Assembly: GCA_951406725.2 (NCBI GenBank)
Contig: OX597823.1
Location: forward strand, 7,192,001-7,256,000
From: Octopus vulgaris
Taxonomy: Eukaryota
Reading direction: 5' to 3'
Length of the DNA: 64,000 nucleotides
Each line of letters opens with the position of its first letter. Within the stretch, counting starts at the first letter, position 1. The notes beneath the pieces were generated by a model that was given only the letters and a program-made list of their open reading frames with translations, was not told the DNA's origin and did no database searches. The position numbers and the translations under genes are program-made. Positions 4,628-60,545 of this stretch are shown here, piece after piece.

Positions 4628-4962
4628 TCATCATCATCATCATCATCATCGTTTAACGTCCGTTTTCCGTGCTAGCACGGGTTGGATGGTTCGACCGGGG
4701 TCTGGGAAGCCAGGGGCTGCACCAGGCTCCAGTCTGATCTGACAGTGTTTCTACAGCTGGATGCCCTTCCTAACGCCAACCACTCCGTGAGTGTAGTGGG
4801 TGCTTTTTACGTGCCACCTGCACAGGTGCCAGAGGGGTCTGGCATCAGTCACGATCGGTTGGTGCTTTTAACGTGCCACCGGCACGGAAGCCAGCCAAGG
4901 CGGCGCTGGCATCAGCCACGTTCGGATGGTGCTTTTTATGTGCCACCGGCACAGAAGCCAGT
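4626..4962 (-). mobile_element. RTE-type 3' end with (GAT)n tail and 3 tandem pseudoknot-like cores
   Basis: rc of GGCGTTAGGAAGGGCATCCAGCTGTAGAAA...GGACGTTAAACGATGATG plus repeats of GTGCCACCGGCAC. Confidence 0.85.
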
Positions 4963-4984
4963 CTATATATATATATAGTCTGTA

Positions 4985-5135
4985 GTCTGCAAAAGAGAAG
5001 AATGAATTGATATGGGCATATGGTGCATAAAACATGGTTTGTGTTCAAAATAGATGGTGAATGTGAAAGAGAAAGATTTAGAAAAACATGGGTTGAAGTG
5101 GTAAAAACCAATATCAAGATGCTGAACATCACATT
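4985..5135 (+). pseudogene. RTE LINE ORF C-terminal fragment
   Basis: RRMN*YGHMVH...IDGECERERFRKTWVEVVKTNIKMLNIT resembles the RTE motif WFGHV.R...G..RGRPRKTW.EVV..D. Confidence 0.7.
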
Positions 5136-5380
5136 CACTAGGCCCCCACCTCGAATACCGCTGTCCATTGTGGTCCCTCTACAAAAAACAAGACATAATG
5201 AAGATCGAAGTGCCACAAAGATCAATAACTAAAAAAATAAATGGCATGACAGGACTTGACTTTTGGGTTTGACTTAAACAGCTGAAACTCTATTCTCTGC
5301 AACACTGCCATGAGCAATATATTATTTGCACCATGTGGAAAATATTCCACTAATATTATCCAGATGATATCGGTATTATT

Positions 5381-5595
5381 CTTTTACTCTTTTACTCTTT
5401 TACTTGTTTCAGTCATTTGACTGCGGCCATGCTGGAGCACCGCCTTTAGTCGAGCAAATCGACCCCGCGACTTATTCTTTGTAAGCCCAGTACTTATTCT
5501 ATCAGTGTCTTTTGCCGAACCGCTAAGTGACGGGGACGTAAACACACCAGCATCGGTTGTCAAGCAATGCTAGGGGGACAAACACAGACACACAA

Positions 5596-5626
<31 letters not shown>

Positions 5627-5792
5627 CATATATATGACAGGCTTCTTTCAGTTTCTGTCTACCAAATCCACTCACAAGGCATTGGTCAGCCCAAGGCTAT
5701 AGCAGAAGACACTTGCCCAAGATGCCACGCAGTGGGACTGAACCCGGAACCATGTGGTTGTTTAGCAAGCTACTTACCACACAGCCACTCCT
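5381..5792 (-). mobile_element. Full-length SINE family A
   Basis: Complete reverse-complement match to 55254-55673. Confidence 0.9.
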
Positions 5793-8029: not shown

Positions 8030-8385
8030 GTTACCAGTGTCGCCTTACTGGCACTTGTGCCGGTGGCACGTGAACTAAACATTCAAACAATGTCGTTGCC
8101 AGTGCCGCTGGACTGACTCCTGTGCAGGTGGCATGTAAAAAACACCATTTTCAGTGTGGCTGTTGCCAGTACCACCAGACTGGCCTTCGTGCCGGTGGCA
8201 CATAAAAGCACCCACTACACTCTCGGAGGGGTTGGCATTAGGAAGGGTATCCAGCCATAGAAACTCTGCCAGATCAGATTGGAGCCTGGCGCAGCCATCT
8301 GGTTCACCAGTCCTCAGTCAAATCGTCCAACCCATGCTAGCATGGAAAGTGGACGTTAAAGGATGATGATGATGATAATGATGAT
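8030..8385 (+). mobile_element. RTE-type 3' end with tandem cores and (GAT)n tail
   Basis: Three GTGCCGGTGGCAC-like cores then GGCATTAGGAAGGGTATCCAGCC...GGACGTTAAAGGATGATG. Confidence 0.85.
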
Positions 8386-13926: not shown

Positions 13927-14540
13927 CATCATCATCGTTTAACGTCCGTTTTCTGCGCTAGCATGGGTTGGACGGTTCGACCGGGGTCTGGGAAGCCAGG
14001 GGCTGCACCAGGCTCCAGTCTGATCTGGAAGAGTTTCTACAGCTGGATGCCCCTCCTAATGCCAACCACTCCGCGAGTGTAGTGGGTGCTTTTTACGTGC
14101 CACTTGCACAGGTGCCAGGGGGGTCCGGCATCGGCCACGATCGGTTCGAGCTTTTAACGTGCCACCGGCATGGAAGCCAGCCAAGGCGGCGCTGGCAATG
14201 GCCACGTTCGGATGGTGCTTTTTATGTGCCACCGGCACAGAAGCCAGTTGAGTCGGCGCTGGCTACGGCCACGTTCGGATGGTGCTTTTTATGTGTCACC
14301 GGCACAGAAGCCAGTCGGGGCGGCGCTGGCATTGACCACGTTCGGATGGTGCTTTTTATGTGCCACCGGCACAGAAGCCAGTTGAGTCAGCACTGGCTAC
14401 GGCCACGTTCGGATGGTGCTTCTTATGTGCCACCAGCACAGGTATCACAACTACTATTTCGATGTTCATGTTCATGTTCATGTTCATGTACTTGACTCAA
14501 CAGGTCTCCTCAAGCACAGCGGGACGTTCTGGGATCCAGG
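13927..14540 (-). mobile_element. RTE-type 3' end including ORF stop (AVLEETC*), 6-core 67-bp array and (GAT)n tail
   Basis: Cores at about 14097, 14159, 14226, 14293, 14360, 14427; candidate TSD ATAAAT. Confidence 0.85.
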
Positions 14541-14684
14541 GTAATAAATTATCTTTGTACATTCAGACAGCTTGACCACCTTTTAAAACATTCTCCAAAT
14601 GCTACTGAAACATACAGATGGGGTATTTGTGCTACTTCAAACAATGGAATCTGTCAATATGTATTTACATTGAGTATATATATT

Positions 14685-14890
14685 GGTTTCAAATTTTGGC
14701 AAAAGGCCAGCAATTTCAGGATCAGGGTTAAGTTGATCATATTGACTCCATTGCTCAACTGGTACTTATTTTATTGACCCCAAAAGGATTAAAAGTAAAG
14801 TTTGAATTTGAACTCAGAATGTATAGACAGATAAAATGCTGTTAAGCATTTTGTCTAGCATGCTAACAATTCTGCTGGTTCACTGCCTTA
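14685..14890 (-). mobile_element. SINE family B
   Basis: CTCAACTGGTACTTATTTTATTGACCCC...GAACTCAGAA...CACTGCCTT. Confidence 0.8.
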
Positions 14891-14911
14891 AGGTGAGTAT
14901 ATATATATATA

Positions 14912-15212
14912 TCATCATTATCATCATCGTTTAACGTCCGCTTTCCATGCTAGCATGGGTTGGACGGTTCAACTGGGGTCTGGAAAGCCTGAAGGCTGCA
15001 CCAGGCCAGTCAGATCTGGCAGTGTTTCTACGGCTGGATGCCCTTCCTAACGCCAACCACTCCGTGAGTGTAGTGGGTGCTTTTTATGTGCCACCGACAC
15101 AGGTGCCAGACGAGGCTGGCGAACGGCCATGCTCGGATGGTGTTTTTTTGTGCCACCGACACAGGTGCCAGATGAGGCTGGCGAACGGCCACGCTCGGAT
15201 GGTGTTTTTTAC
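14912..15212 (-). mobile_element. RTE-type 3' end with 62-bp repeat units
   Basis: Same subfamily as 37640-38312 (GAGGCTGGC..ACGGCCACGCTCGGATGGTG units). Confidence 0.85.
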
Positions 15213-15398
15213 GCATGATGAACTTTTGTAATTTATACACATTCTGAACAATTCTTCTTTTTTGTCCATAAGTGAAGTACACCTGCTTCATTTCCAATTA
15301 CTAGGTGGATATGACACAAAGATTTCAAAGTTACTTAACTTTTTCTTGATTTCTGTTTGTAAATGAAAAGGTGCTTTACAATCAGCTATTATAATCAG

Positions 15399-18623: not shown

Positions 18624-18663
18624 TAATAGTATATATGCATATACGTATGTGCATATATACATA

Positions 18664-19060
18664 TCATCATCATTATCAGCATTTAACATCCATTTTCCAT
18701 GCTAGCATGAATTGGACAGCTTGATAGGGAACTGGCAAGGCCAGGTGCTGCACCAAGTTCCATCGTCTGTTTTGACTTTGGTTTCTACAGTTGGATGACC
18801 ATCCTAATGCCAACCACTTTACTGAGTGTACTGCTTGCTTTTTACATGACACCATCACCAGTGCTTTGTATGTGGCACCTTGGTTTTAGGATATCAGTTC
18901 TCTTGTGGTTTACAGAATTGCACCACATATATCAATCCTTTGTCATCTTGTTCGTAAGTGTCAGCATTTTTCTTCATTGGTCTTCAATACTTTGTCTTCT
19001 GCTTTCCTAGGTCTCCTTCTTCTACATCTTCCCTTTACTTTGAATGATTGGCACTTCTTT
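18664..19060 (-). mobile_element. Old RTE-type 3' end with ORF C-terminal remnant
   Basis: (GAT)n tail and conserved tail motif; rc of 18960-19060 gives [19 protein letters not shown]. Confidence 0.7.
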
Positions 19061-23357: not shown

Positions 23358-23479
23358 TTTCTTTTATTTGCCATGAGGGCAATAAATGAGAGTAGCAATA
23401 CAAAGACGACAGACAAAAAAATGTGGGGATTTTCATAGAAAAGAATGAGAAGAAAATACAAGCATACATGGTACATAAT

Positions 23480-23692
23480 ATTGGTTTCAAATATTGGCAC
23501 AGAGCCAGCAACTTTGAGTGGTGGGGGTAAGTCAATTACATTGACCCCCCAGTACTCAACTGGTACTTATTTTATTGACCCCAAAAGGATGAAAAGTAAA
23601 GTTGACCTTGGCGGAATTTAAACCCAGGACAGATGAAATGCCGGTAAACATTTTGCCCAGCATGTTTACAATTCTGCCAGCTCACCGCCTTA
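23480..23692 (-). mobile_element. SINE family B
   Basis: Family B core and head on the minus strand. Confidence 0.85.
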
Positions 23693-24375
23693 ACATAGTA
23701 TATGATATTAACAAAAGAAAAAAAGTATACATGGCATATATCAGTAACTTTTAAAAAAATATGGTAATGATGTGATCCTCCAAATACAGGAGGACTTCTA
23801 GAGCCAATCAAGGAAACCCACCATCCAAGATCTCTCTGAACCCCAAGGGCAAGTGCCTTCTCTAATTCTTGTTCACATTTTTGCAACTTTGAACCACTTA
23901 TCAATAAATTTACTTGAGGATGCACCCCTCTTTTACCCTCACTCTCTTTTTCAATTGAAACTCGAAAAAATTGATGAGGGCTCTATCAAAAGGTAAGGTC
24001 TCTGTCCTCATACTTCAACATCATCCACTAGACAACTTCTTTAGCCATTACCATTACACAAAGGAAAACTTCCTTAGGTGCTCAGTTAAAGGCGAGCAGG
24101 TAAGACAATAATCTATAGAATCTGAAACTTATTTGTAAAAAATTTAATCAAAAATTATTCATTTTTTCATGAAGTTGCAAGGGGGCACACTTCTGTAGTT
24201 ATGTCAACATATTAAGGTACAAGAAATTTCTTATTTTCAAAAGTGTTAGCCTATAATTAACTAAATGTTTTTAATGATTGTGTTGAGAAAGTTATATTTG
24301 TTTATCTGTTTACATACATTTTGTACACTTATAAGAATGTATGTGTGTGTATGCCATTATATAGCAAAGTACAAA

Positions 24376-28197: not shown

Positions 28198-28837
28198 CAG
28201 TGCCGGTGGCACATAAAAAGCACCGTCCGAACGTGGCCGATGCCAGCGCTGTCTCGACTGGCTCCAGTGCCGGTGGCACATAAAAAGCACCATCCGAACG
28301 TGGCTGTTGCCAGTGCTGCCTTGGCTGGTTTCCGTTCCGGTGGCACATAAAAAGCACCGTCTGAACGTGGCTGATGCCAGCGCTGTCTTGACTGGCTCCA
28401 GTGCCGGTGGCACATAAAAAGCACCATCCGAACGTGGCTGTTGCCAGCGCTGCCTTGGCTGGTTTCCGTGCCGGTGGCACATAAAAAGCACCGTCCGAAC
28501 GTGGCCAATGCCAGCGCTGTCTCGACTGGCTCCAGTGCCAGTGGCACATAAAAAGCACCATCCGAACGTGGCTGTTGCCAGCGCCGCCTTGGCTGGTTTC
28601 CATGCCGGTGGCACATTAAAAGCTCCAACCGATCGTGGCCAATGCCGGACCCTCCTGGCACCTGTGCAGGTGGCACGTAAAAAGCACCCACTACACTCGC
28701 GGAGCGGTTGGCGTTAGGAAGGGCATCCAGCTGTAGAAACTCTGCCAGATCAAGATTGAGGCCTAGTGCAGCCGTCTGGTTCGCCAGCCCTCAGTCATTC
28801 GTCCAAACCATGCTAACATGGAAAGCGGACGTTAAAC

Positions 28838-28870
<33 letters not shown>
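28198..28870 (+). mobile_element. RTE-type 3' end with 8-core array (67-bp period, ABABAB) and (GAT)n tail
   Basis: Cores at 28200, 28267, 28334, 28401, 28468, 28535, 28602, 28664. Confidence 0.9.
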
Positions 28871-28917: not shown

Positions 28918-29305
28918 ACAGGAGTGGCTGTGTGGTAAGTAGCTTGCTAACCAACCACATGGTTCCAGGTTCAGTCCCACTGCGTGGCATCTTGGGCAAG
29001 TGTCTTCTGCTATAGCCCCGGGTCGACCAATGCCTTGTGAGTGGATTTGGTAGACGGAAACTGAAAGAAGCCTGTCGTATATATGTATATATATATATGT
29101 ATGTGTGTGTGTTTGTGTGTCTGTGTTTGTCCCCCTAGCATTGCTTGACAACCGATGCTGGTGTGTTTACGTCCCCGTCACTTAGCAGTTTGGCAAAAGA
29201 GACTGATAGAATAAGTACTGGGCTTACAAAGAATAAGTCCCGGGGTCGATTGCTCGACTAAAGGCAGTGCTCCAGCTTGGCCGCATTCAAATGACTGAAA
29301 CAGAG
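28918..29305 (+). mobile_element. SINE family A
   Basis: Full head-to-tail match. Confidence 0.9.
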
Positions 29306-30851: not shown

Positions 30852-31240
30852 CACAGGAGTGGCTGTGTGGTAAGTAGCTTGCTAACCAACCACATTGTTC
30901 CGGGTTCAGTCCCACTGCGTGGCATCTTGGGCAAGTGTCTTCTGCTATAGCCCTGGGCTGACCAATGCCTTGTGAGTGGATTTGGTAGACGGAAACTGAA
31001 AGAAGCCCGTCGTATATATGTATATATATATGTATGTGTTTGTGTGTCTGTTTTTGTCCCCCTAGCATTGCTTGACAACCAATGCTGGTGTGTTTATGTC
31101 CCCGTTACTTAGCGGTTCGGCAAAAGAGACTGATAGAATAAGTACTGGGCTTACAAAGAATAAGTCCCAGGGTCGATTTGCTCAACTAAAGGCGGTGCTC
31201 AAGCATGGCCGCAGTCAAATGACTGAAACAAGTAAAAAAA
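30852..31240 (+). mobile_element. SINE family A
   Basis: Full head-to-tail match. Confidence 0.9.
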
Positions 31241-31349: not shown

Positions 31350-32133
31350 CACTTGTCCGGTTTCAGGTGTGTTTCCGTAAGTGCTATGCATAAGGCTTGA
31401 TTGCATGCAACAAAGTCTCTCAAGAACGGGATTTTTGTCCTGTTACTGTGTGTTAGTAGTCCTCTGATGTTCAGTAGGAGCATCGAGGTGAGGTGTATGC
31501 TGTGGCCGGCGGTGTCCACCTTGGGTCTATTTGCTGTGGTGGTCTTGTATATTGTGGGTAGTCCCATCTGCGAGCTTGGGTTTGATGGAGCCAGGTTAGC
31601 TGCTGTACAATCTTTTGTGCCATGCACAAAAAAGATTCTTGTTCAGCAGCTGCCCTTTCAACAACATCATGTTGGCCGTTTGTGGCACGCACCACATCTG
31701 CGTACCTCCGTTTTGGGGCAGGTGGTGCGTGGTCCATCCCTTTTCCTTTCGGTAGTTGGTTTCTGATCTGTTTCGTGTCTCTGCGGCAGGGTCCTCGATG
31801 TGCAAAAAGGCAGCCTGCACCTTCCTCTCCATGCCAGCAGGTACCTCTCAGGTAGAACCTACATACCTGTGTGCGCTGTTTGTTTCCATCCTTTTTGGTA
31901 TATGGATAGTCAGGTTTGCTTCTATTCTTGGCTGTTTCGTTTTTTGGTTTTGCCTGAGTTTTAGTTTTAGTTTTTCCTCCTTTTTTGGTTCTTTCATCTC
32001 CATGGCTTTTGGTGCTGGTAGGAGCACTTGCACTTGGGTTTACTTCCCGGGCAGGTTTCTCACTGGAGTTTTCTTCCTGGGTGTCTACCAGGTGGGGGTG
32101 ACTTTTTTCATCAGCACCCGCGTCTCCATCCAT
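31350..32133 (-). mobile_element. LINE 5' fragment: ORF1 with CCCH zinc finger overlapping the start of an APE-type endonuclease ORF2
   Basis: 220-aa ORF with CRFYLRGTCWHGEEGAGCLFAH; overlapping frame LLLNIRGL...TKIPFL...IALTETHL, truncated after it. Confidence 0.8.
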
Positions 32134-32244
32134 ATGTATATATATATAAAATTTTATGTAACCTAATTACACATTTGTTTCCTGTGTTTGCATATATTAT
32201 AAAATATCTTGTATACAATATTCTTTGTGAACTTCTACAATCAA

Positions 32245-34322: not shown

Positions 34323-35374
34323 TAAAGGTGCATTCCAGAAGTTTGGATACTTTTTAGGAGAGGTAGTTACAACTGTTCTTGATTATTGTAATTTTAATAT
34401 ATTAATACATCTGATGAGTATCTGACCAAAATATTTAAGCTGTTTTATATTGAAACTGACAGATCTCGCCTCTCACCTCAGCCCTACCATGTCATTCTAA
34501 AACTAAAAAATCACATCACTGAAATCTCTAAACTACAAGATAATGCATGATTAATTCAAACCATCTTAGATAAACAAACATCACATTTGACACAATAATC
34601 TGAACACTAAAGGGTTAATACATCTGATGAGCTGACTTACCAACTTTTTTTTTCCAGATTGAAGGAGACAGCTGTAACAGCACTTTGGACACACCCTACT
34701 AAACACTGCTTGTCACAGCTGACTAGGTTACAGAATGCAGTTGGAGCATGAAGGCAGCTTAGAAGCTTGCTATGCAATAAGGTTTTTGTGTGAAACAGGG
34801 CAAATATGCTACAGAAACCTTTGAAATGCTTTTGGATTAACTTATATGAGCTGGCCATCTCTTTTTCACTGGCACGAGAGGTCAGGCAAAGCAAATCTGA
34901 TGGGAAGCACATGATGATTCCTTTTTATAACTGTAAGGGCATCAAAACTGTTCCTCACTCTCCCTACGGTCCAGACATGCTCATCGTGACTTCTAGTCGT
35001 TCCTCAAGCTGAAGGAGAACATGAAGGAGACAGGACATAACTATAGGGGACTTTCATGGGGTCTTCATGAAGGGGTTGGAGTTCTACAAAAGATCTTACA
35101 TTGAAAGAGACTAGAGTTTTGTACTTTTTTGAAATTTTTTATTTATTTATTGCTCACAAGGGGCTAAACATAGAGGAGACAAACAAGAACAGACAAAGGG
35201 ATTAAGTCGATTACATTGACCCCAGTGTGTAACTGGTACTTATTTAATCGACCCCGAAAGGATGAAAGGCAAAGTCGACCTCGGCGGAATTTGAACTCAG
35301 AACATTGTGGCAGACAAAATAATGCTAAGCATTTCGCCCAGCGTGAGTCTCAAAACTTTTGGAATACACCATGT
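34323..35374 (+). mobile_element. Deleted mariner element with nested TTAA MITE fragment and SINE B (35140-35345)
   Basis: TIR-like GGTGCATTCCAGAAGTTT / AAACTTTTGGAATACACC; remnants NATETFEML, RQSKSDGKHMM, KTVPHSPYGPD. Confidence 0.75.
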
Positions 35375-37639
35375 ATATTTATACAAACTGGTATACATCT
35401 ATACACTTATTTATATAATACAGAGGATAAAGGAGCAAGAATTTTTTTAAAGTACACTAAAAATATAAGAAACGCGAACTTCAATGTTTCAAGCATTGCA
35501 TCAAGCATAATGTTTGATTCCATGTAAAAGCAAGTTTATAGTATTTGCTTTTTAGTGACTAGAGCTACAATTGCAATCACAATTTGATGGAAAATTTCAT
35601 AAGTGAGCTAAAAGTGATATATTAAATAATGAAGGAAATAGTCTCTTGCAAGGTTAAAATGTTTTAAATACTTTACCGTAGACACTATATTTTGATTACT
35701 TCAACAACAGGAGAGTTACTTTAAAACAGTATGCTTTACTATTGTCACTTATGAATTTTCACAAGCACTTTGTGTCTTATTCAGCAATTGACAAGAAATT
35801 TTGTTGTAAATAAGTTCATTCAAGAGCTGTCTAGTCATTGTATTTACTGTTTGGTAACACAGTCACAGGAAATTGTATTTCGAGGTTTTTGTTTTCTTTC
35901 TCAGAAAGTTCTTGAAATTTGGAGAACAAAATTAAGAGGTAGTTAATTACCGCTATAGAAGCAAATAACTTGATCCCAATTGCAGAATTAAATTAAAATC
36001 TTTGGGACAAATATTTATTTTGCATGATTGTGACTATAAATAAACAAAGTGCTTATTGTTGTATGAGGTCACTGTAGACTGGCAACAATGTACAAGTAGC
36101 TGTTTGTGCGTGGGAAGTGTACATGCAGCAATTTGATATTAAATTAAAACTATAATCATTGAATACATTAGATAATTAGTAATACTTTAGACAAGTGCAG
36201 GTATAATCAGATGGTAAGTAAGCTTACTTTGTAACCATGTACTTCTGGGTTCAAACCTATTACATGGTCCATTGGTCTGATACAGTGGTTCTCAAGCATT
36301 TTCTTTTTTTTTTTTTTTGCTTTTGATTCCTATTTTACTCTACTGGACCTCCATAACCATTCATTGTACATAGAAAAAAATCTTATTGTATTTTTATGAT
36401 TAATATTATTTGGAACTGTATAAAAAGTTGTTAAAATATTTCTATATTGTAGAAATGTAACCAATTTATTGCACATAAATTTTAACAAAATCTTATATGG
36501 ACCTCTTCCCGCCAATGCTTATATGGAGCCTGACTGAGAATTACTGGTCTCTGAGACTACAAGTCTTGGATTGACCAATGCCTTGTAAATGGAATATAGT
36601 AGCCAAAAACTATCAATGCATACATACATGCATAAATACATACATATATACATACATACATACATACATACATACATGCATATATGCAGGCATGTATGCA
36701 TGTAAGTGACTACAACTCAGTTTTAACCAATGTTATTGCTTGACTGTTCTCTTTTTGTTGTTGTTGTTAAGCAACAAGACGGGTAAGGGTGATTAGGTGA
36801 TGGTCTAGGGCTTAGGGGCGGGAGACCCCAGACCTTGGAAAAAAAAAAAGCTTTGGTCGTCTTGTTGTAGTCAAGGGTTCTTTGTTGACACCCGACACCA
36901 CTGGGAAGTGGCTCTCAAAGTCACTGGAAATGGAGATCTCCAGGTTCAAATTCTTGGATGGCTGACTGTTCTCTTGGACATGAGCAGCACAGAAGTGGCA
37001 TTTCAGTCCTGCAAGGGACTAACTAAGTTGCTCACAGCCTGGTAAGAATCAAGCAGAGGATATTATGTGTGTCAAGGTTGGGTGGCTGAGATGTGGGAAT
37101 GCTTGACAGGACAGTATGGGAGTAAGGACAGCAGTCAGCACTTGGAATAAGTGGCAACTCTCTTTTTCATGGATGTAGCAACGATGAGTGCCTCTGGCAG
37201 TAAATAGGGCACATGCCTTCATTCCATCATAAAATTTTCCATTGAGTGTTATGTATTTATAGGCTACAGCCAGCCATAGTATGCAACATATAATAAAAAT
37301 GTTAAAAATGAAGTAAAATTTGTACCTGATGCTTTTTTAAAGTGAGGAAAGGTCTTGTACAGGACCAATCCTGCTTTCGAAATAATGTATGCATTTGACC
37401 AAAAAGAAGAACTAGTGTTTATCATTGGATGCAAATGAAGTCACAGTTGTTAGTTCAGAGTTTTCCTTCTCCGAGAGAAATATCTAAACAAAAACTAGGG
37501 GTCTTCGACTTTCAGCAGCTGGATGGCTATTGACTCTACTGAGTTCATCCTCCCTTTGACAGGTTTTTGTTTTTCTTCCAGTAGGGCCCGTGGCCCCTAC
37601 CTGGGTTGTAGTCAGTCCGCCTGTGCATACCTTCCTGCT

Positions 37640-38312
37640 TGTGACACTTGTGAAGACCTGTTGAGGCAAATCAAATCAAAGTCAAATCGAATCAAGTCAA
37701 ACCAAATCAAAATAGATGAACATCAATGGAATTTGTATCCTTGTGGTACCAGTGCCGGTGGCACATAAGAAAACCATCACAACACATTTAACACCAACAA
37801 CAAATACATATGGGGTGGGCACGTAACAAACACCGTCCGAGCGTGGCCGTCTGCCAGCCTCGTCTGGCACCTGTGTCGGTGGCACATAAAAACACCATCC
37901 GAGCGTGGCCGTCTGCCAGCCTCGTCTGGCACCTGTGTCGGTGGCACATAAAAACACCATCCGAGCGTGGCCGTCTGCCAGCCTCGTCTGGCACCTGTGT
38001 CGGTGGCACATAAAAACACCATCCGAGCGTGGCCGTCTGCCAGCCTCGTCTGGCACCTGTGTCGGTGGCACATAAAAACACCATCCGAGCGTGGCTGTTC
38101 GCCAGCCTCGTCTGGCACCTGTGTCGGTGGCACATAAAATCACCCACTACACTCTCGGAGTGGTTGGCGTTAGGAAGGGCATCCAGCTGTAGAAACACTG
38201 CCAGATCTGACTGGCCTGGTGCAGCCTTCGGGCTCCCCAGACCCCAGTTGAACCGTCCAACCCATGCTAGCATGGAAAGCGGACGTTAAACGATGATGAT
38301 GATGATGATGAT
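37640..38312 (+). mobile_element. RTE-type 3' end with five near-identical 62-bp units (37831-38140) and (GAT)n tail
   Basis: Units start at 37831, 37893, 37955, 38017, 38079; upstream GAAGACCTGTTGA matches the ORF end seen at about 14500. Confidence 0.9.
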
Positions 38313-38445
38313 AGGGCATCCAATGAAAACCAACTTCCTTACCCAGTTGGCTTAGTTGGGTTGGTGGTTTAGTTGCTAACAGCCATATCATGCAACAAGT
38401 TGCACTGAGTTACATGTTAACAGTTACATTATAAGTGACATGACA

Positions 38446-39002: not shown

Positions 39003-40809
39003 TTGTCATTCTAGTTTTATTCACAGTCCCAAAAGATACAATATTCTCATCAATTCCGAGATATTTGTAACATCAAAGTAAAGGTAGGTTACCTTCTCAA
39101 GTCATGCCGACTCATAAGGGCTGGTTTCCCCAGTTTCCATGGCATATAAACCCCCCACCTGGATGGGACACTGGTTCATCACAGGATTACTAATTTTCTG
39201 CAAAGAGCACCATACGAGTGTGATCGTTGACAGAGCAGCTAACCGGCTTCCGTGCCAGTGGCACATAAAAGGCACCATTCGAGTGTGATTGTTACCAGCA
39301 TCACCTTACTGGCACTTGTGCCCCATGCTAGTAGGGTGTTAAGAGCACCATCCGAGTGTGATCGTTGCCAGAGCGGCTAAATGGCTAAATTTCTATTGCA
39401 TGAACAACACTCCTAGCTTAAAACCATATGTATGTAGCCAAAAACTAGAAGCCCAGAGCATGCTTGAATATAACATATGAATTATATACAGGTTGCTCAA
39501 ATGCATTCCTTCAGGATAACTACGAAACACACAATGTGATTACAGAAAAGTAGGCAGGAGGAAAGGAAAGAGTTTGGTGCTGTGCTAAACAACTCCTGAT
39601 CAGCAAAACTGTCCTTAAAAAAGTAAAATAGCATACCAACACTTGCTGACTGCATGGTGAGATTATATGAAGGCATGTGACTCTGTCTCTCACTTGTGGG
39701 TTTAGAGTCACAATGCTTTGCTAAGGTTTCAACTGCTGTAGTTAGTGCCATTAAGAGGCTGACAACAATATTGCCCACAGAACTATAATTAAGAACAGAT
39801 GCTACCACAACAGCCACTAACAGAATTAGACTACCAACATGAATATTTCAAAGTGACATAGTAATGGAGGTCGGTTAGGACAAGCGTTCACACAAGGAAA
39901 GATTGTTGACCAGATAGGAAATATGAATATCAATGGCCTATTTATTTCCCCAATCATCAGTGATGAATGCTACAAACAGTGGAGGCGTGTGACTTGGTGG
40001 TTAGGGTGTTGGCCCCATGATTGTAAGATTGTGGTTTTGATTCCTGGATCGGGCAACATGTTGTGTTCTTGAGCAAAACACTTCATTTCATGTTGCTCCA
40101 GTCCACTCAGCTGGCATCATCATCATCGTTTAACATCTGCTTTTCATGCTAGCATGGGTTGGACGATTTGACTGAGGGCTGGTGAACCAGATGGCTGCAC
40201 CAGGCTTCAATCTTGATCTGGCAGAGTTTCTACAGCTGGATGCCCTTCCTAATGCCAACCACTCCGAGAGTATAGTGGGTGCTTTTATGTGCCACTGGCA
40301 CGGGGGCCAGCCAGGCGGTACTGGCAATGACCTCGCTTGAATCTTTTTACACATGCCACCGGCACAAGTGCCAGAAGGCGACGCTGGTAATGATCACGCT
40401 CGAATGGTGCCTTTTATGTGCCACCGGCACAGAAGCCATTTAGCCGCTCTGGCAATGATCACGCTCGGATGGTGCTCTTGACACCCTACTAGCACAGGGC
40501 ACAAGTGCCAGTAAGGTGATGCTGGTAACAATCACACTCGAATGGTGCCTTTTATGTGCCACTGGCACGGAAGCCGGTTAGCTGCTCTGTCAACGATCAC
40601 ACTCATATGGTGCTCTTTGCAGAAAATTAGTAATCCTGTGATGAACCAGTGTCCCATCCAGGTGGGGGGTTTATATGCCATGGAAACTGGGGAAACCAGC
40701 CCTTATGAGTCAGCAGAAGGTAACCTACCTTTACTTTGATGTTACAAATATCTTGGAATTGATGAGAATATTGCATCTTTTGGGACTGTGAATAAAACTA
40801 GAGTGGCAA
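39003..40809. repeat. About 380-bp inverted duplication (39003-39386 / 40434-40809)
   Basis: Arms are near-identical reverse complements and span LINE, SINE and array pieces. Confidence 0.92.
40117..40620 (-). mobile_element. RTE-type 3' end with variant tandem cores, adjoining a SINE C-like head (39980-40115)
   Basis: Tail motif plus GTGCCAC(C/T)GGCAC cores. Confidence 0.8.
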
Positions 40810-45970: not shown

Positions 45971-48329
45971 GAAACAAAGAAACTAATACTATAACAGGAT
46001 ATTTTTTAAATATGTAATAGAATTGAGAAGCAATATAAAAAGGGGCAGAATGTAGTAAAAATTAAAGGGGAAAATAAATATATAAAGAACTCACAGACTA
46101 TAAGATCATTGGAGAAATACTGAAATTTCAGAACTGTTATTGAAAGGACAGAACCAATATTGTCATAATTAGGAACGTTTGAAGACAATAGAATGATCTT
46201 CTGCCAATATGTTGTTGTACAAATATCCAGTTTCAATTAAAATGGAGAGCATGACAATCAGGCTAATCTTCAATGGAATAAAACTCCCAAAGATAAAGAA
46301 AGAGTAATTATAGATAAATAGATTGTCCTATCTACAGGTCATATATCTCAATCCATGATCTATTTTCATCCACTTCCCCTAGATTTTCCATATTCCATTT
46401 AGTCTTTATACCTTTTCATTTATGTTTCCTATCACTCTCTATTCTTTTCACTCCTTTGTTTTCACAAACTGCTCTCTGCTGCTTTTCTTTACTAAATACC
46501 AATAAGCAAGCTTAAATGTTTAATCACATATCTATATCTATACATATATTTAAAAAGCTTTCTGATTTTTAAGAAATACTTTTATGAATATAAAGCATAT
46601 CATCTAATCCAACCTTTGATAATAACATTTATAAATAAATAATTGATATGTTGTAATACAGTTCATTGATTCCACTTATGATAGGAGTATGAGTATAGCA
46701 ACTGAATTTGATCAGAATATTGTGTATGCAATTTATATATTCATGGTAAACCTTCTAAGTATTTTTCTTAGCTATAACTGAATTATCACTGAATTGTTTT
46801 CATATATCAATATTTACATGTTATTTCAGCATTTTATTGTACTTTCAAAAGGGCTCGTAAGGAATCACAGAACATTATTAATTTCCTTTTGATTTAAGAC
46901 AGTAGGTAATTAAAGATTTTCCTACACGTAAGAACAGGAATAAATTATATTATATAGTTTTCCATTTATTTCCCACATGCTAACAGAAAATAGACCTCTT
47001 CTGATCTTGATGGTAGAATAAACACACAGCACATAGGTTACAAGTACAGGTTAAAATAGGAAAGAATTCAAACATAATCAATGTAACAGACTGCCATATA
47101 CCTGAACAATCAAGAGAAATTTTACATAATTGTAATTGCAATTACATGTACACATTTTCAGGTTTTACAAAGTTAACTGAATAATTTCTGTTGCAGAATG
47201 TGTTGATATATATTTTCTTTCTTATAAAATCAAAGTAGAAATTATTCTATCAACACTAGATGAAGCTAATGTCAAAAGGGAGAGAAGAGGAGGGGGAGGG
47301 AGAACATAAAATTTGACAGCCCAGCCATGACTGATAGTGACTTCTCTTTCACAGCCAAAACATGGCTCACAGATTACTCATCTCTGATTGGTTAAAATAA
47401 CACGTGACAATAGTGAAACTAAACTGAGCTTGCTACAAGAGCATCTCATTCAGTATAGTCATATGGCTATAATTTTCAGTGAAGCCAGAATATTCACTGA
47501 GAAAGCAAGTTTTAGAATTTACATGGCACGCATAAGATTTTAAAGACAATAATATTTTCATTCATTCATCCACATAAAACTGATGCAAGTATTGAGAAAA
47601 CTGAGTTTAAAGTTAAAATATTCATTCATACTTTCATTTACATAAAACACAAGATATCAAACAATGAAAGACCTTACATGCGTTGAAAAGAATAATAAAA
47701 AATTTTGATTATTCTTTATTTTTTTCAGTATATTTTCAGACTAATAAACTATAACAACAACAATGAGCTTTTATTCTATTGTTACAAAGATCATGAATGA
47801 GAAAGGATATTACAAATATTGGTTACAAAAGTGTTGAGATTTACAATGAAATCTGATGAATGAAAAAAGAAAGATCAGGAAAAATAGTATCCGTGCTATA
47901 CAAATATTTATGATGAAACCTCAAGAGGAGGACTATTGCCTAAGGCCAGTCAAAGAATCTACAGGCCCAGGATTACCCAAACTAAAATTGGTAAGTACTC
48001 TTTCTCAGATGTCATTCTCTAACCTATAAACATATGCTAACAGAAGGCTTATTCAAGTAGATAATGCTCACCATTTTCACCAGCATTCTACAGATTTACT
48101 TCTTCCTCTTCCCACACTCCTTCCTATCACCAATCCACACTTGTTTCTAATGATGATCTTCTTCCAGTTCCTGTCAACTAAATTTCATTCACAAAGCACT
48201 GGATATACCCTGACATTTTGAAGTACACATTAGTACATCACATTCCACCCCCTAAAAAACAACCCATCTAATCTAGCAAACTATTGAGCTTTTCGTCTCA
48301 CCTGTAACATCTCTCAGGTAATGGAGACA

Positions 48330-49520
48330 ACCATTAACCTTCTCCAAAACCTTGAATTTCTCTCTCTCTTTCTCTCTCTTGTCTTCTCTCCTCCTCACTG
48401 ATCCCCAGTATTGCTTCCTTGGAGCCAGATCCACTGCCACCCAACTCTCTTATGTCTCTTGCCAATTGATTCTTGCTACGGAGACACTTGGTGAAAACAA
48501 TTTTATTACCATGGACAACAGCAAAGTTTTCAACCATGTCTGGAATGCAAATCTCCTATCAATACTTCCCACCTGTCTCTCCTGTCCTGGTTCAGTAGCT
48601 TCCTGTCCAATCACACTATCAGGATATGTGTTGATCAAGCTCTTTCTTCCCCATTCTCCGTCAAGCCTGGAGTTATTCCAAGGTTTAACTTTGTCCACCA
48701 CTCTCTTTCTCAATGACCTACTTTCTGACACATCCAACAACACCCACTCTTATGCAGATGACACGATTCTTCATTCTTCCTTAACTTACCCTAGTCATGT
48801 ATCAACAGCATGCAGCCTATATTCCTTCACACTAAATCTGCATTGATTCCATGAACAGAGACCTTGTGAGTCTTCTGTGAGGCTATGCCAATCAATTTTC
48901 TATAGCACACAAAAAAAAAAATTCAATCACTGCTCATATCAAGAAATTATCACCAAAGTATGTATCTACTAAACATGAACAGCATTCAGCTTGAGCCCTA
49001 ACAATCATTCCTAAATCTTGGGCCTCCCTATCATCAAGTATCTCTCCTGGCAAAAGCACATCCTTAACATAACAAAGACAGTATCCCAAAGACTGACTCT
49101 TCTCTTCATGACCAGAAATTATCTTAACTCCCAACAGCTGCTAACACATTACAAGACTCAAGAGAGGACACAGTGGAGCACTGCTCCCACATCTGGGTTG
49201 GTACTGCTGCTATGCACAGAGGCATCCTGGACATAGGCATCCAGAAAAGAGCCATCTGACTAAGTGGAATTCAATTATTAACAGACATGTTCCAGCCTCT
49301 TGCCTATAAATGTGATATCTTCACTCTTTCTTTTCTACAATATTACAATTGCTTTTGTCCCTTAGAGCTAATTGGTCTTCATACCTCCATCACTCAGGAA
49401 CCTCTGTTCTACTTATCTTTCTGGTGCATCCAACCCTACACTAACCATCATGGCTAGTTCTTTCTTCTTAGAACATTGGCCTTCAGGAATCTTCATCATG
49501 CTTGCCTTTCCTGCAGGTGT
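48330..49520 (+). pseudogene. LINE reverse transcriptase remnant (Jockey/CR1-Zenon-like)
   Basis: LLTDPQYCFLGARST...MDNSKVFNHVW...LFLNDLL...HSYADDTIL; frameshifted. Confidence 0.85.
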
Positions 49521-51200: not shown

Positions 51201-52530
51201 TTGCAAGACAAAGAAAAGATCTTTGACTGAATAGTGTGATAGTAGGAAGGGAGGTGGCTTTACACCAGATGTTGACAGGCTGAAGCATGACTGAAGGACA
51301 AGCACAGATGTTTTGCTATAGAGGGATACAGGGCTACCCTGCATTATATAAGGGTAGATGGGAGTAGCTGGAAAGAAGACAATGATGGTGGTGAGGAGGT
51401 GTCAGGGTGTACCCTCATGATACAAGAAGGTGAGTGTAAGAGAGAATACAAAAAAAGAATCAGAAAGTTTGGATGGAGAAATTCATTAAGGTGTGAGAGG
51501 AGAGTGACAAATGGTTAGAGATGGGTGTAGAGTGAATGTATGGAATGGAGCAAGGGTGGTTGGTGTTAAATATCAGTATAGCAGGAGGAAGATGCGAAAA
51601 ATTAGAATTGCTCAGGAAAGAGGAAGTGATAAGTGGCACTACAAGAAGGGATGAGATCAACAGCACCTTTATGTAGATCAGAAAATGTAGATGACATGCA
51701 AGGTGGGGGAGTTGGATTGAGCATGAGAAACAGATGTACAGAGGTAGAGATAGACGTGAGAGGTACATAGGGATGGCTATAGTGAGTGGTGGGGTCAAGG
51801 GCAGATATGCCAGAGTATAAAAATGAAAGCAGATAAGAGAAGGTGTTAAAGATATGGTAATAGCAATCCTAACATGTATCACAGGGAGACACAGAAAGTG
51901 TGATTAGTACAAAAGAAAGTGGGAATATTGGGAATAAAGAATGAGTTTTAAAAGGAAGGGGTTCCATGAAAAGGGGAGGTAACTGGTAGCATAAAGGAGA
52001 ATAAGGAATTTACATATTCTGCTCATGATTATAGCTGCTGAATAGTACTGAAGTTGGAAGAGTGAATGAATGATGCTAGGAAGATGAGAGGCAAGGAAGG
52101 CTTGATGGGGACAAATTGAATGCAGGGAAAGGGACCAGTGAGTGTATAGACATACACATAATGCTTTTAGGGTCTCACTACCATTGAAATGCATGGGTCT
52201 TCTCAAGAACAGTGAATCATCAGTCATTTCAGCCCTGAATCATCTCCCCAAGAACCTCAACTTCATCCGATATCCTTCTGGGTCTCCATGTTCCTCACTG
52301 TGCTTCCAGAAACTGTTTTACTGGGATGGGCAGGTCTTCTCAATTACTGCGTATCACCAGTCATCTTGGTCTTCTGTCCTCTTCTCCATGAGGTCCTGAG
52401 ATCAGCCTTCACTACCTCATCCCATATCTTCTTGTGTCTTCCTCTTCTGCAAGCACCATCCACATTAAGGGATCAGTACTTCTTTTTACAGCTCTCCTCA
52501 TACATATGCATCACATGTAGAAACCAGAGA
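51020..52530 (-). mobile_element. RTE LINE 3' part: ORF end plus about 1.3-kb strand-skewed 3' UTR plus conserved tail
   Basis: rc of 52325-52530 gives WFLHVMHM...VDGACRRGRHKKIWDEVVKADL...W*YAVIEKTC. Confidence 0.7.
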
Positions 52531-53872
52531 AAATTCATTTCTTGTTTGTTCTTTGTGTTTATTACCTCTGCACATCTGCCACACACAAAGTCTACCTTCT
52601 CTGTTAATCTGTTAACCTTCATGTGATCCCACAGCACCTCATGTGTGCCCATACCTCGTACTCAATACACTGTACAGAGTTTCATCCAACACCTTTCTTA
52701 CAGGACTATTTTTCTGATGAGAGTAGAATAGAGTTTGTTTTTCTTACTAGGACTTTGATCTTTGCTACATTTCCTTTAAGGCTCTCTGATTTCAGGTTTT
52801 ACTTCCCCACCTGGAATTTCTTTTCTAATTCTATTACAAATACGGCATTAAAATTGAGGTCTTCAGTATATGGTAGTTTCTAAAGGGAACCAGTCTTAAA
52901 TTTCTTTGTCATGGCCTGGAGGACTATTATGTAAGAGGACTGAGGATGAAATCCTAGTGAAGTGAGCCCTACTCTTTTGACCAAGGGCTAGGCTGCTCAT
53001 GCCACTTACACTGTGCTGTTTCATATACAATAAATTGAACCTATCTACCTTATGTATATGTAAGCACAATGCACATAACCGCTTCTGATGAGTGCCTAAC
53101 CCGCAAACAGCTATAAAGAACTACCTACACTTTTCTACCCATCTCTTGCAAAGCTTTCACCAGTGATCTCATGGAGCTTACTTATGTATCCAGGTCAAAT
53201 GAGCATGAAAGACCACTTGAATTTTCCTATGTTTCATAAATGATGTTGTATGATTTTTTTTCCTGAGTTCGTATATGTCCTCATGAATAACTATGAATTT
53301 TCACTATTCAGATATTCTTAGATTCCTGCTATATTTATACTTTTTTGTTCCCTTTTCCGAAAATATGCTATAAATGACTCAATGCCCCGAAACTGCTCTA
53401 TTAATTTTATTCTATTATTCCTGAATCAGCTTGTCTGCTACATTGCCTCTAACCAACTCTTATTTCTATGGATTCTGCGTCCCTGCACTTAACTTTGAAG
53501 TTTAGGCACTAGGTTTGCTCCGAGCACTTACTGTATGTATCTCTTATATTATATGTCTTTTGACAGTTTCTTTCCTACACACACACACACACACACACTC
53601 ACACAGGCATGCATGTATACGAGATACTTTCACAACTCATGGTTAAGTAGTACTGTAATTTAACTACTAGGTCAACTTGATAATGATTTTTTTAATTTAG
53701 TTTGAAACCATAAAATTGCAAGAGATGGGGACCATTGAAAAGAAACTTCTACAGTCGTTGACAAATTCTTTTTGCAGTTTTCTTTTTCAATATTTGAGGA
53801 TGCACAGAGTTACTAATAAAGCTTATATGGCATACAACTTAAATTCAACTCACACTATACAATTCTATACAC

Positions 53873-55253: not shown

Positions 55254-55672
55254 AGGCGCAGGTGTGGCTGTGTGGTAAGTAGCTTGCTAACCAACCACAT
55301 GGTTCCGGGTTCAGTCCCACTGCGTGGCATCTTGGGCAAGTGTCTTCTGCTATAGCCCCGGGCCGACCAATGCCTTGTAAGTGGATTTGGTAGACAGAAA
55401 CTGAAAGAAGCCTGTCGTATATATGTGTATATATGTATATATATGTGTGTGTGTGTGTGTGTCTGTGTTTGTCCCCCTAGCATTGCTTGACAACCGATGC
55501 TGGTGTGTTTACGTCCCCGTCACTTAGTGGTTCGGCAAAAGAGACCGATAGAATAAGTACTGGGCTTACAAAGAATAAGTCCCGGGGTCGATTTGCTCGA
55601 CTAAAAGGCGGTGCTCCAGCATGGCCGCAGTCAAATGACTGAAACAAGTAAAGGAGTAAAAGAATAAAAAGA

Positions 55673-59584: not shown

Positions 59585-60351
59585 CCTGTGATTGGTGTAT
59601 TGTCATTTCACAGTTATGTTTTAGTGCTTTGTTATTTCATCCAGAGCGTTTTGTGGTGTGGTGATAAATTCTCAGCTTGTGACCTTTATGTTCCCTGTTG
59701 GATACATTTATCCTGTCACATACTTTTTATTTCTCTTGTTTTGTTGTTAAGAAAAAACAGGAATAATATATTTCCTAATTAGACTTCTCTGAAATCTCCT
59801 CTTCCTTCCCCTCCTCATTCTACTGCTGCTGCTGCCATTGTTGTCATCATTGTTGCCACTATGTCATCGTTGCCATTATTGCCATCACTGCCACTACTAC
59901 CACTCACTATCACCATCAGAATCATCAGTTTTATCACCATCCTCCCACTCCTTAACACCATCAGTTCACAGTGTGGGTTTTTTTTTTTTCTATGCTTGTA
60001 TGGGTTGAAAATGTCTGAAACTCAGTTACTTTCTTCCCATTTCAATCATAAACACTGTATTTCAGAAAGATGTAGCTTGGCTTTTACAGCTGAAAGTTTT
60101 TCCTGTGACCGAAGCAGATCAGGTGTGGTCTTGGAGTATTACAGTACAAAAGAAGTTGCCTTCTTAAACATGGAACCTTCATTACCACATACCTTCACAA
60201 TTAAAATTCTGTCTGATGCCAATATGGAATAAAATTATGTTCAAGTCAAAGTAATTCTAAGCTGCTATAGTCACCTGAGTCTGTATGAGCCACAGTATAT
60301 TCACCTGAGACGGAAGACCTGTGTTTTCAGAAAACCCTGAAATGATGATGA

Positions 60352-60545
60352 TGATCATCATCATCATTTAACGTCCGTTTTCCATGCTAGCATGGGTTGG
60401 ACGGTTTTGACTGAGGGCTGGCAACCAGATGGCTGCACCAGGCTCCAATCTTGATCTGGCAGAGTTTCTACAGCTGGATACCCTTCCTAACACCAACCAC
60501 TCCGAGAGTATAGTGGGTGCTTTTTACATGCCACCTGCACCTGAT
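60352..60545 (-). mobile_element. RTE-type 3' end
   Basis: Tail motif with one core. Confidence 0.85.

What the first reader, a model, noticed from the sequence alone, without database searches (positions are those of the whole stretch)
28198..28690. Structured repeat-plus-variable-hairpin arrays with higher-order ABAB periodicity
Seen: constant core GTGCCGGTGGCAC(A/G)TAAAAAGCACC(A/G)TCCGA, a hairpin whose GGTG can alternatively pair with CACC across an A-rich linker (H-type pseudoknot-like). It alternates with a GCCAG-loop-CTGG(C/T) hairpin whose loop differs between units and loci (4800, 8035, 14090, 15080, 37831, 39215, 40290) while the stem is kept. Here two loop types alternate (134-bp higher-order repeat). 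Inference: selection on RNA structure. The core recalls the repeated GGCACGTTAAA motifs of Nin/Deu SINE domains and, loosely, the P1-AAA-pseudoknot-GCGU order of pistol ribozymes, though a clear pistol P2 is absent. Possible roles are RT binding, nuclease blocking or RNA processing into unit-length RNAs.
Basis: partly seen in the sequence, partly recalled or inferred. Interest (0 to 1): 0.7.

Follow-up and report, generated by a model that had tools for sequence, protein, structure and literature searches.

The report
Pseudoknot arrays inside an RTE-derived retroposon
The repeat array is the tandemly copied front part of an abundant animal jumping-gene fragment built from the two ends of a LINE retrotransposon, and each unit carries a small predicted RNA pseudoknot that likely serves the element's own copying rather than acting as a ribozyme or serving the host.

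Summary
The array is real: 67-bp units, ABAB, seven other loci. It is not a stand-alone RNA. Each array is the 5' part of an interspersed retroposon: [62-67 bp units]n, a motif found just upstream of RTE-type LINE ORFs in other animals, and a tail whose last codons read RPTHASMENGR*, identical to the end of an RTE-type reverse transcriptase, then (GAT)n. This is a bipartite RTE derivative, a known kind. ABAB is a duplicated dimer shared with two other copies. The same fold, with two fully compensated pairs, sits at the same place in a full-length RTE-type LINE from another organism. Across tens of thousands of contigs, common variation falls on the unpaired L1 base and the loops. An unrelated RTE 5' end carries its own 64-bp pseudoknot-plus-hairpin array. 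Against: no significant covariation among the window's units, ordinary folding z-scores, no ribozyme core, no Rfam hit, only 12 bases shared with Nin/Inv-like bodies. Best reading: a selfish element amplifying an inherited RNA cis-signal. New variant of a known kind; interest 0.4.

The parts
28199..28600 (+). Three A-B dimers (six 67-bp units). Each unit = predicted H-type pseudoknot (S1 GTGC/GCAC, L1 one base, S2 GGTG/CACC, A-rich L3) + spacer + GCCAG..CTGG(C/T) hairpin with an 11-nt loop
28601..28662 (+). 62-bp C-type unit (6-nt hairpin loop; pseudoknot partly decayed), also found before the terminal pseudoknot at 4885(-) and 14171(-)
28663..28688 (+). Terminal pseudoknot, positionally homologous to the one in the 5' UTR of RTE-type LINE L031
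28694..28706 (+). Small hairpin (CACTC / GAG(C/T)G) with a 3-nt loop that varies across the family
28706..28740 (+). Conserved RTE 5'-UTR motif GGTTGGCGTTAGGAAGGGCATCCAGCTGTAGAAAC; lies just upstream of the ORF start in L031, L072, L103 and L113
28741..28799 (+). Subfamily-specific middle body, origin not determined
28800..28837 (+). 3' tail = last codons of an RTE-type ORF (reads RPNHANMESGR* here; RPTHASMENGR* in the 60.4k copy, identical to the end of P0077)
28838..28870 (+). (GAT)11 microsatellite tail
4640..4963 (-). Family copy: partial A, B, C, terminal pseudoknot, tail
8031..8385 (+). Family copy with older, heterogeneous 65-67 bp units
13930..14545 (-). Family copy A'-B-A'-B-C-terminal with a 5' extension (LINE-ORF-end-like AVLEETC stretch + ATGAAC repeats); candidate target-site duplication (TSD) ATTTAT
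14920..15213 (-). Family copy with 62-bp D-type units
18660..18880 (-). Older subfamily copy without array; its S1 inner pair is A-T instead of C-G
37590..38313 (+). Family copy with a monomer array (62-bp D unit x5.3) and a 5' extension; candidate TSD TAGGGC
39195..39386 (+). Partial copy, part of a local inverted duplication of the 40.1-40.8k region
40115..40608 (-). Family copy with heterogeneous 64-73 bp units
60350..60541 (-). Family copy whose 5' end falls at the start of the terminal pseudoknot; candidate TSD TCATCA

Best explanation
The array is the 5' part of a high-copy retroposon made of an RTE-type LINE 5'-UTR motif and that LINE's last codons plus (GAT)n, likely copied in trans by an RTE reverse transcriptase, and each unit repeats a predicted H-type pseudoknot inherited from the LINE 5' UTR that likely acts as an RNA docking or stabilising signal for the element itself. 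Shown: the element's anatomy, the identity of its two ends, ABAB as a duplicated dimer, and the conserved pairing potential. Inferred: (1) mobilisation by target-primed reverse transcription through the tail hairpin and GAT repeats (established for this kind of element; not tested here); (2) tandem duplication of a roughly 65-nt pseudoknot + hairpin segment in source copies, divergence into unit types, then duplication of monomers (D)n or dimers (AB)n by slippage or unequal exchange; (3) variable 5' truncation on insertion; (4) folding of the pseudoknot, with the A-rich loop in the S1 minor groove; (5) binding of the RTE protein as its role. I favour binding because the motif is kept in non-coding derivatives that need no translation. 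Selection acts among source elements; inserted copies such as this one are probably decaying and need no host function.
For: Same 3' body and GAT tail behind every complete array. Module found 14 times in 64 kb. 68,700, 69,220, 35,237 and 9,227 contigs laid on a 241-bp piece in four runs. Of 121 metagenome loci with the motif, 4 have an RTE-type ORF N-terminus matching from 41-99 nt after the motif start; L031's ORF is 1094 aa, endonuclease + RT + PHD. The tail of the 60.4k copy reads RPTHASMENGR*, equal to the C-terminus of P0077 (52% identical to the L031 ORF); 15 of 120 relatives end in [RS]PT[HR]A[SC]. L122 has the same motif + tail + GAT layout in another organism. B units of 28.2k are closer to the B units of 4.9k and 14.4k_4 (4-6 differences) than to their own A units (8-12), so the AB dimer predates this insertion. 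Pseudoknot: L031 CGAGA-T-GGTG-TCTCG-GTAAAAA-CACT against window TGTGC-A-GGTG-GCACG-TAAAAAG-CACC; 6 of 18 stem letters differ and all 9 pairs are kept (P=0.0017 under random substitution). Covariation score reached by 2 of 500 shuffles on 11 terminal modules. Family-wide, L1 is three-state (A, C 34%, T 20% in X1); non-CpG variants of 5% or more hit 7 of 25 unpaired positions and broke 0 of 38 paired ones (p=0.0009). 3 of the 4 LINE loci have such a pseudoknot upstream, against 5 of 117 others (p=0.0008). L103 has an independent 64-bp x 3.1 array of pseudoknot + hairpin.
Against: No covariation among the window's own cores: 1 of 9 pairs with a double change, 356/500 shuffles as high; the outer S1 pair is unpaired in 10 of 23. 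The plain hairpin model scores about the same on those data. The variable hairpin never shows a compensatory change. Folding z-scores are ordinary: sense -1.93 to +0.58, and the antisense strand was lower in 9 of 12 pairs (no pseudoknots modelled). The 2/500 rests on two divergent rows (L031 and the 18.8k copy), only 3 of 14 pairs had double changes (131/500), and the tool warns that relatedness alone can give such scores. One search shows only 40 of 54 variant rows and omits at least one common change seen in the window (GCACG/GCACA). CpG-type changes were set aside, one of them pair-breaking (28669 G>A, 11%). Unpaired but invariant stretches also exist (L3, the module). The pseudoknot scan was loosened after I saw L103 and L113, and over all 121 loci it shows no enrichment (8 loci; background 0.23 per kb gives about 8). 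L122's S1 is broken, and L072 has no pseudoknot. No promoter or head was found, so the true 5' end and the source element are unknown. RTE-clade assignment is by architecture, not by a tree.
Confidence: 0.6

Rival explanations
1. Neutral minisatellite inside the retroposon. The pairing is an inherited relic. Short inverted repeats merely promote slippage and loop replacement, and nothing selects on structure in the array units (at most in the terminal one).
For: No in-window covariation; no compensation in the variable hairpin; ordinary z-scores; older subfamily copies (2.9k, 18.8k, 33.8k, 50.6k, 51.1k) spread without an array; unit types turn over between organisms (the 62-bp C unit has about 0.1% of the module's depth in X12 against about 5% in X1; depth is only a hint).
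Against: 18 loop types with a mostly intact stem; loop-only variation family-wide in the C unit; an independent pseudoknot + hairpin array in L103.
Confidence: 0.25
2. The parent is an autonomous RTE LINE whose long 3' UTR contains the array and a captured bipartite element. The copies seen are 5'-truncated LINEs rather than a stand-alone short element. This changes the placement, not the origin of the parts.
For: The two copies that extend 5' of the array (14.4k, 37.6k) share CTTGWGRAGACCTGTTGAG + microsatellite. This aligns with the end of a decayed RTE-type ORF at 52.3k (YAVIEKTCPSQ* there, AVLEETC* at 14.5k). No tRNA head or pol III boxes.
Against: The match is only about 13-18 nt; the 52.3k ORF is not followed by an array; the two extensions differ further upstream; a search with the decayed ORF found no intact relative.
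Confidence: 0.3
3. The pseudoknot is a 5'-to-3' exonuclease barrier protecting uncapped element RNA. Tandem copies give nested fallback ends, so templates and insertions begin at pseudoknot starts.
For: 2 of 6 copies with a junction inside the array or terminal region (28.2k, 60.5k) begin within 2 nt of S1. The R2 ribozyme double pseudoknot is described as giving cap-like protection (PMC13708176, passage).
Against: 4 of 6 begin elsewhere; the count is post hoc; a 26-nt H-type knot lacks the three-way junction of flaviviral xrRNAs (recalled); no xrRNA family hit.
Confidence: 0.12
4. Each unit is a self-cleaving ribozyme (pistol- or hammerhead-like) releasing 62-67 nt RNAs.
For: RTE 5' ends are reported to carry self-cleaving ribozymes (PMC5786205 and PMC6765202, citing Ruminski 2011, which I could not read). 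The stem + AUA4 minor-groove triplex is shared with the pseudoknot hammerhead (PMC11300833).
Against: No P2 strand between the A-linker and the pseudoknot's 3' strand; no CUGANGA core on the sense strand in 6 of 6 copies tested; no ribozyme among the 6 Rfam matches at E up to 10; multi-unit arrays are inserted intact, which efficient cleavage in every unit would prevent.
Confidence: 0.04

Closest known systems
Bipartite non-autonomous RTE elements and RTE-bodied SINEs (Bov-A, RTESINE1/2, WALLSI3, MAR4, RTE-N2_Lch; Kojima 2018, PMC5786205)
   Same: Only the 5'-UTR-derived and 3'-terminal parts of an RTE LINE, a microsatellite tail, no ORF, high copy number.
   Different: A different RTE 5' motif (GGGCATCC has 0 hits in that paper's supplement, and 'octopus' has none); an internal array of 62-67 bp structured units with monomer and dimer expansions; a tail taken from the last codons of the ORF; possibly an extra LINE-end-like 5' extension.
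Nin/Inv/Deu conserved SINE domains (Lottia_Nin and Pan_3 in PMC4758252 supplement; EbuSINE2 and HaSE1 in PMC5786205 supplement)
   Same: Their 5' part has the same order: stem arm, pairing loop, stem arm ending in ACG, TTAAA, partner strand. By eye, Pan_3 gives TGTC/GACG with CTTCGG/CCGAGG and EbuSINE2 gives CGTCC/GGACG with TCAG/CTGG. The HaSE1 body (labelled 'unknown' in that paper) shares TGGCACGTTAAA with the window's 4885 unit.
   Different: The rest of the roughly 120-bp Nin domain is absent, there is no tRNA or 5S head, and the sequence match is 12 nt.
Pistol ribozyme and pseudoknot-containing hammerhead (PMC4604425, PMC11300833)
   Same: P1-type stem whose loop forms a pseudoknot, followed by an A-rich strand suited to a minor-groove triplex.
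   Different: No P2 or helix I, no catalytic loop, no P3-GU-P2 junction: the scaffold without the enzyme.
RTE-2_OV of Octopus vulgaris (Petrosino 2022, PMC9115989)
   Same: RTE-clade autonomous LINE with a single ORF and a microsatellite beginning at the ORF end; a candidate partner class if the window is octopus (recalled, not shown).
   Different: Its 3' UTR is described as mostly microsatellite; four window motifs had 0 hits in the 8 of 12 supplementary files searched.

Membership tests
Bipartite non-autonomous RTE element | Segment homologous to an RTE LINE 5' UTR | tested here: met
   Motif and pseudoknot align with the UTR directly 5' of the L031 ORF; motif precedes an ORF N-terminus in 4 of 121 loci
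Bipartite non-autonomous RTE element | 3' end homologous to an RTE LINE 3' end, with a microsatellite tail | tested here: met
   RPTHASMENGR* identity with P0077; (GAT)n
Bipartite non-autonomous RTE element | No coding capacity between the two parts | tested here: met
   About 60 bp between module and tail; 3 ORFs over arrays have no Pfam hit at cut-off
Bipartite non-autonomous RTE element | Interspersed, with target-site duplications | tested here: inconclusive
   14 interspersed module copies; 6-bp candidate TSDs in 3 of 8 copies examined, a TA-run match in 1, none convincing in 4 including 28.2k
Bipartite non-autonomous RTE element | Retains the LINE's extreme 5' end and has no upstream ORF | tested here: inconclusive
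   All copies look 5'-truncated; two have an extension resembling an ORF end
Bipartite non-autonomous RTE element | Partner LINE falls in the RTE clade by RT phylogeny | not tested
   Assigned from single-ORF endonuclease + RT architecture and repeat tail (recalled definition); no named clade references on hand
Nin/Deu-domain SINE | tRNA- or 5S-derived head with pol III A and B boxes | tested here: not met
   ARAGORN 0; no A/B box pattern in 6 of 6 copies; truncation could hide a head
Nin/Deu-domain SINE | Homology over the roughly 120-bp Nin domain | tested here: not met
   By-eye comparison with Lottia_Nin, Pan_3 and EbuSINE2 as printed: only the ACGTTAAA-type motif is shared
Pistol ribozyme | P1 stem with loop forming a pseudoknot | tested here: met
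   Pairing potential only
Pistol ribozyme | P2 and P3 stems with the pseudoknot strand in the P2-P3 junction, GU cleavage junction, 10 conserved nucleotides | tested here: not met
   A-linker leads directly into S2'; no Rfam pistol match at E up to 10 (definition)
Pistol ribozyme | Self-cleavage | not testable with these tools
   Needs an in vitro assay
Hammerhead / twister / HDV-like ribozyme | Conserved catalytic core sequences | tested here: not met
   No Rfam hit; recalled core patterns absent from the sense strand of the 6 copies, apart from isolated GAAA and one HDV-like pentamer

The most novel reading that the evidence does not exclude
A compact stem-ACR-TWAAA pseudoknot is an ancient, so far unrecognised RNA signal of RTE LINE 5' UTRs, bound by the RTE protein. 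It has been tandemly amplified at least twice independently (this genome and L103) because extra copies raise mobilisation. It is also the source of the Inv/Nin/Deu SINE domain, whose origin and deep conservation are an open question.
Probability: 0.2. Interest if true: 0.7.

Novelty: new variant of a known kind. Interest (0 to 1): 0.4.

Why it matters
As an element it is ordinary: a bipartite RTE derivative, probably already in a repeat library I could not consult. Its value is the structural lead. Kojima 2018 states that the origins of the widely conserved SINE bodies are unknown and that no LINE sequence similar to them has been found. Here a pseudoknot-compatible motif of the Nin/Inv type sits in RTE-type LINE 5' UTRs (L103, L113) and in this array, and it can be tested in a 26-nt RNA. 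RTE UTRs are also used as template handles in gene-writing systems (PMC13708176, passages), so a defined, repeatable cis-signal would be of practical interest.

Tried and rejected
No own genome is held, so genome-wide unit alignment and R-scape were not possible. Rfam: 0 hits in the window at the gathering threshold, 6 chance-level hits at E up to 10, 0 in 13 loci. Viral contigs: 0 hits for three DNA patterns and one protein. Genome contigs: 25 pattern hits for the L031 protein, none confirmed. V/Vhc domain considered and rejected: no shared motif in the supplement. Expression: no RNA holder listed; X23 is only guessed to be RNA and consists of contigs, so its 9,227 laid contigs say nothing about strand, ends or 62-67 nt RNAs. 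The decayed ORF at 52.6-52.9k found no relatives. Host identification through the CCCH ORF failed; 'likely octopus' rests on my recall of the repeat content and comes from no call. Pfam on 24 of 51 stop-to-stop frames gave 2 hits. Earlier findings: three look-ups, nothing returned. A translation written in my notebook (RPTHASMEKRTLNDDD) was wrong for the window's copies; one search gives the correct readings. Alignment A1 left out the divergent 18.8k copy, 5'-truncated cores and duplicate D units; 18.8k was included in A3.

Full report
Observation. The array is as described: 67 bp x 7.4 and 134 bp x 3.7 at 28198-28688, and 15 core matches against 0 in shuffles. The window is AT-rich, microsatellite-rich eukaryotic DNA. 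I take it to be octopus from recalled repeat content; no call shows this. The sequence reads A-B-A-B-A-B, a 62-bp C unit, then a terminal core.

Context. Self-comparison shows that the arrays continue into a common body and end in (GAT)n. A model of the terminal module finds 14 full-length copies in 64 kb. Seven have arrays upstream; the rest are truncated or belong to an older array-less subfamily. Tens of thousands of contigs per run align to a 241-bp piece in three DNA runs from three organisms, and 9,227 in one run guessed to be RNA. Candidate 6-bp target-site duplications were seen in 3 of 8 copies, and none was convincing at 28.2k. No tRNA, Rfam family or pol III box was found.

Identity of the two ends. 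A scan of metagenome contigs for the motif after the array returned 121 loci (the scan stopped early). In 4 of them an RTE-type ORF begins just downstream; in L031 it is a 1094-aa endonuclease + RT + PHD protein. Many of the others are short elements ending in a hairpin, TTAAA and a microsatellite (49 of 121 by my pattern), and L126 has a tRNA-like head by eye. Of 120 listed relatives of the L031 ORF, 15 end in [RS]PT[HR]A[SC]. The window's tails translate to the same peptide, and the 60.4k copy gives RPTHASMENGR*, identical to P0077. L122 has the same motif, tail and GAT run. This is the bipartite 5' + 3' RTE layout reviewed by Kojima 2018 (PMC5786205; I read parts 1-4 of 5 and searched its supplement), with a different 5' motif from those shown there. 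One complication: two copies extend 5' of the array into a short stretch resembling the end of a decayed RTE-type ORF at 52.3k, so the parent may be a LINE with all this as its 3' UTR.

ABAB. A-A and B-B distances are 1-5 and A-B distances 8-12. B units match B units in other copies better than their own A neighbours, and the order (AB)n-C-terminal recurs at 4.9k and 14.4k. Another subfamily expanded a monomer instead (37.8k, 15.1k). Duplication of a diverged dimer explains the period without selection.

Structure, for. L031 carries the same pseudoknot 26 nt before the motif (28 nt in the window), with 6 of 18 stem letters changed and all 9 pairs kept. The older 18.8k copy shares the A-T inner pair with L031. 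In the family-wide variant table the single L1 base is A, C or T, which fits the pseudoknot and not the plain hairpin, where it would pair. Non-CpG variants fall on 7 of 25 unpaired positions and break 0 of 38 paired ones. Three of the four LINE loci have such a knot upstream, against 5 of 117 others. L103 has its own 64-bp x 3.1 array of pseudoknot plus a GGCAG/CTGCC hairpin, with a different sequence.

Structure, against. Within the window, covariation is at shuffle level for both the pseudoknot and the hairpin model. The variable hairpin's stem is kept but never compensated, and folding z-scores are ordinary. The variant table shows 40 of 54 rows. CpG-type changes were set aside, one of which breaks S2 in 11%. 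Categories and scan settings were fixed after seeing the data, and over all 121 loci the scan shows no enrichment. The cross-taxon covariation rests on two rows.

Ribozyme and Nin leads. Pistol needs P1, P2, P3 and a pseudoknot to the P2-P3 junction (PMC4604425, passages); here the A-linker runs straight into the partner strand, and no ribozyme family matches. The stem + AUA4 triplex of the pseudoknot hammerhead (PMC11300833, passages) is a fair structural analogue. The element is not a Nin SINE. However, the 5' parts of Nin/Deu bodies printed in two supplements are pseudoknot-compatible by eye, with one double change between Pan_3 and EbuSINE2 (G-C against A-T), and the HaSE1 body shares 12 nt with the 4885 unit. 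L103 and L113 resemble that motif in sequence, though L103's best S2 register differs from the Nin register. These published sequences were compared by eye only.

Mechanism. I commit to a selfish non-autonomous RTE derivative whose source copies amplified an inherited pseudoknot + hairpin segment, the pseudoknot most likely being a docking or stabilising site for the RTE protein (confidence 0.6 overall; about 0.85 for the identity of the element alone). Rivals: neutral minisatellite 0.25; LINE 3' UTR placement 0.3 (compatible with the rest); nuclease barrier 0.12; ribozyme 0.04.

Literature seen. PMC4758252: passages, part 1 of section 11, supplement hits (file 1 not searchable). PMC5804259: passages and supplement hits. 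PMC4824008, PMC6765202, PMC13708176, PMC11300833, PMC4604425: passages. PMC9115989: passages, 8 of 12 supplements searched. PMC13282606: part 1 of 3; supplement listed but not read. Ruminski 2011 was not held. [quoted passage not shown] In the listings of searches, and in the passages I read, I found no description of these arrays or of a pseudoknot in RTE 5' UTRs or Nin/Deu domains; that is weak evidence of absence.

Verdict. Observation confirmed; interpretation partly supported; new variant of a known kind; interest 0.4.

Noticed in passing
L103:12-207 (+): Independent 64-bp x 3.1 tandem array of pseudoknot + hairpin units in the 5' region of an RTE-type LINE, followed by a second, larger pseudoknot-compatible element 46 nt before the motif.
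   Followed up: partly
window 28919-29302 (+) and about 10 further copies (e.g. 5405-5792, 30853-31230, 55259-55646, 57511-57887): A second abundant SINE-like family of about 385 bp. Its 3' part also contains a pseudoknot-compatible motif (GGTCGA-T-TTGC-TCGACT-AAAG-GCGG).
   Followed up: no
window 14666-14906, 23465-23708, 35140-35345 and others: A third interspersed family of about 250 bp.
   Followed up: no
window 39003-39386 (+) and 40420-40809 (-): Local inverted duplication (95% over about 200 bp of flank, plus array units). The 40.1-40.6k copy appears inserted into another repeat, with a possible TGC duplication.
   Followed up: partly
window 52320-52933 (-), 4975-5157 (+), 48322-48846 (+): Decayed reverse-transcriptase ORF fragments; the first two match the RTE-type relatives of L031.
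   Followed up: partly
window 31471-32166 (-): Open 231-codon frame with one CCCH zinc finger (Torus, E=1.4e-5, below cut-off); possibly a LINE ORF1 or a host exon; no relatives found.
   Followed up: partly
L122-L126: Eukaryote-like retroposon sequences carrying the same RTE motif inside contigs of bacterial MAGs in the genome collection, likely contamination; L126 has a tRNA-like head before the motif.
   Followed up: partly
L051, L103, L113, L002-type loci: A second recurrent hairpin upstream of the motif, GTCG-TAA(A/G)AGG-CGAC, with GATCG/CGATC in L113; no Rfam hit in the 13 loci scanned.
   Followed up: no
window 28200 and 60541: Two copies begin within 2 nt of a pseudoknot's first base.
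   Followed up: partly
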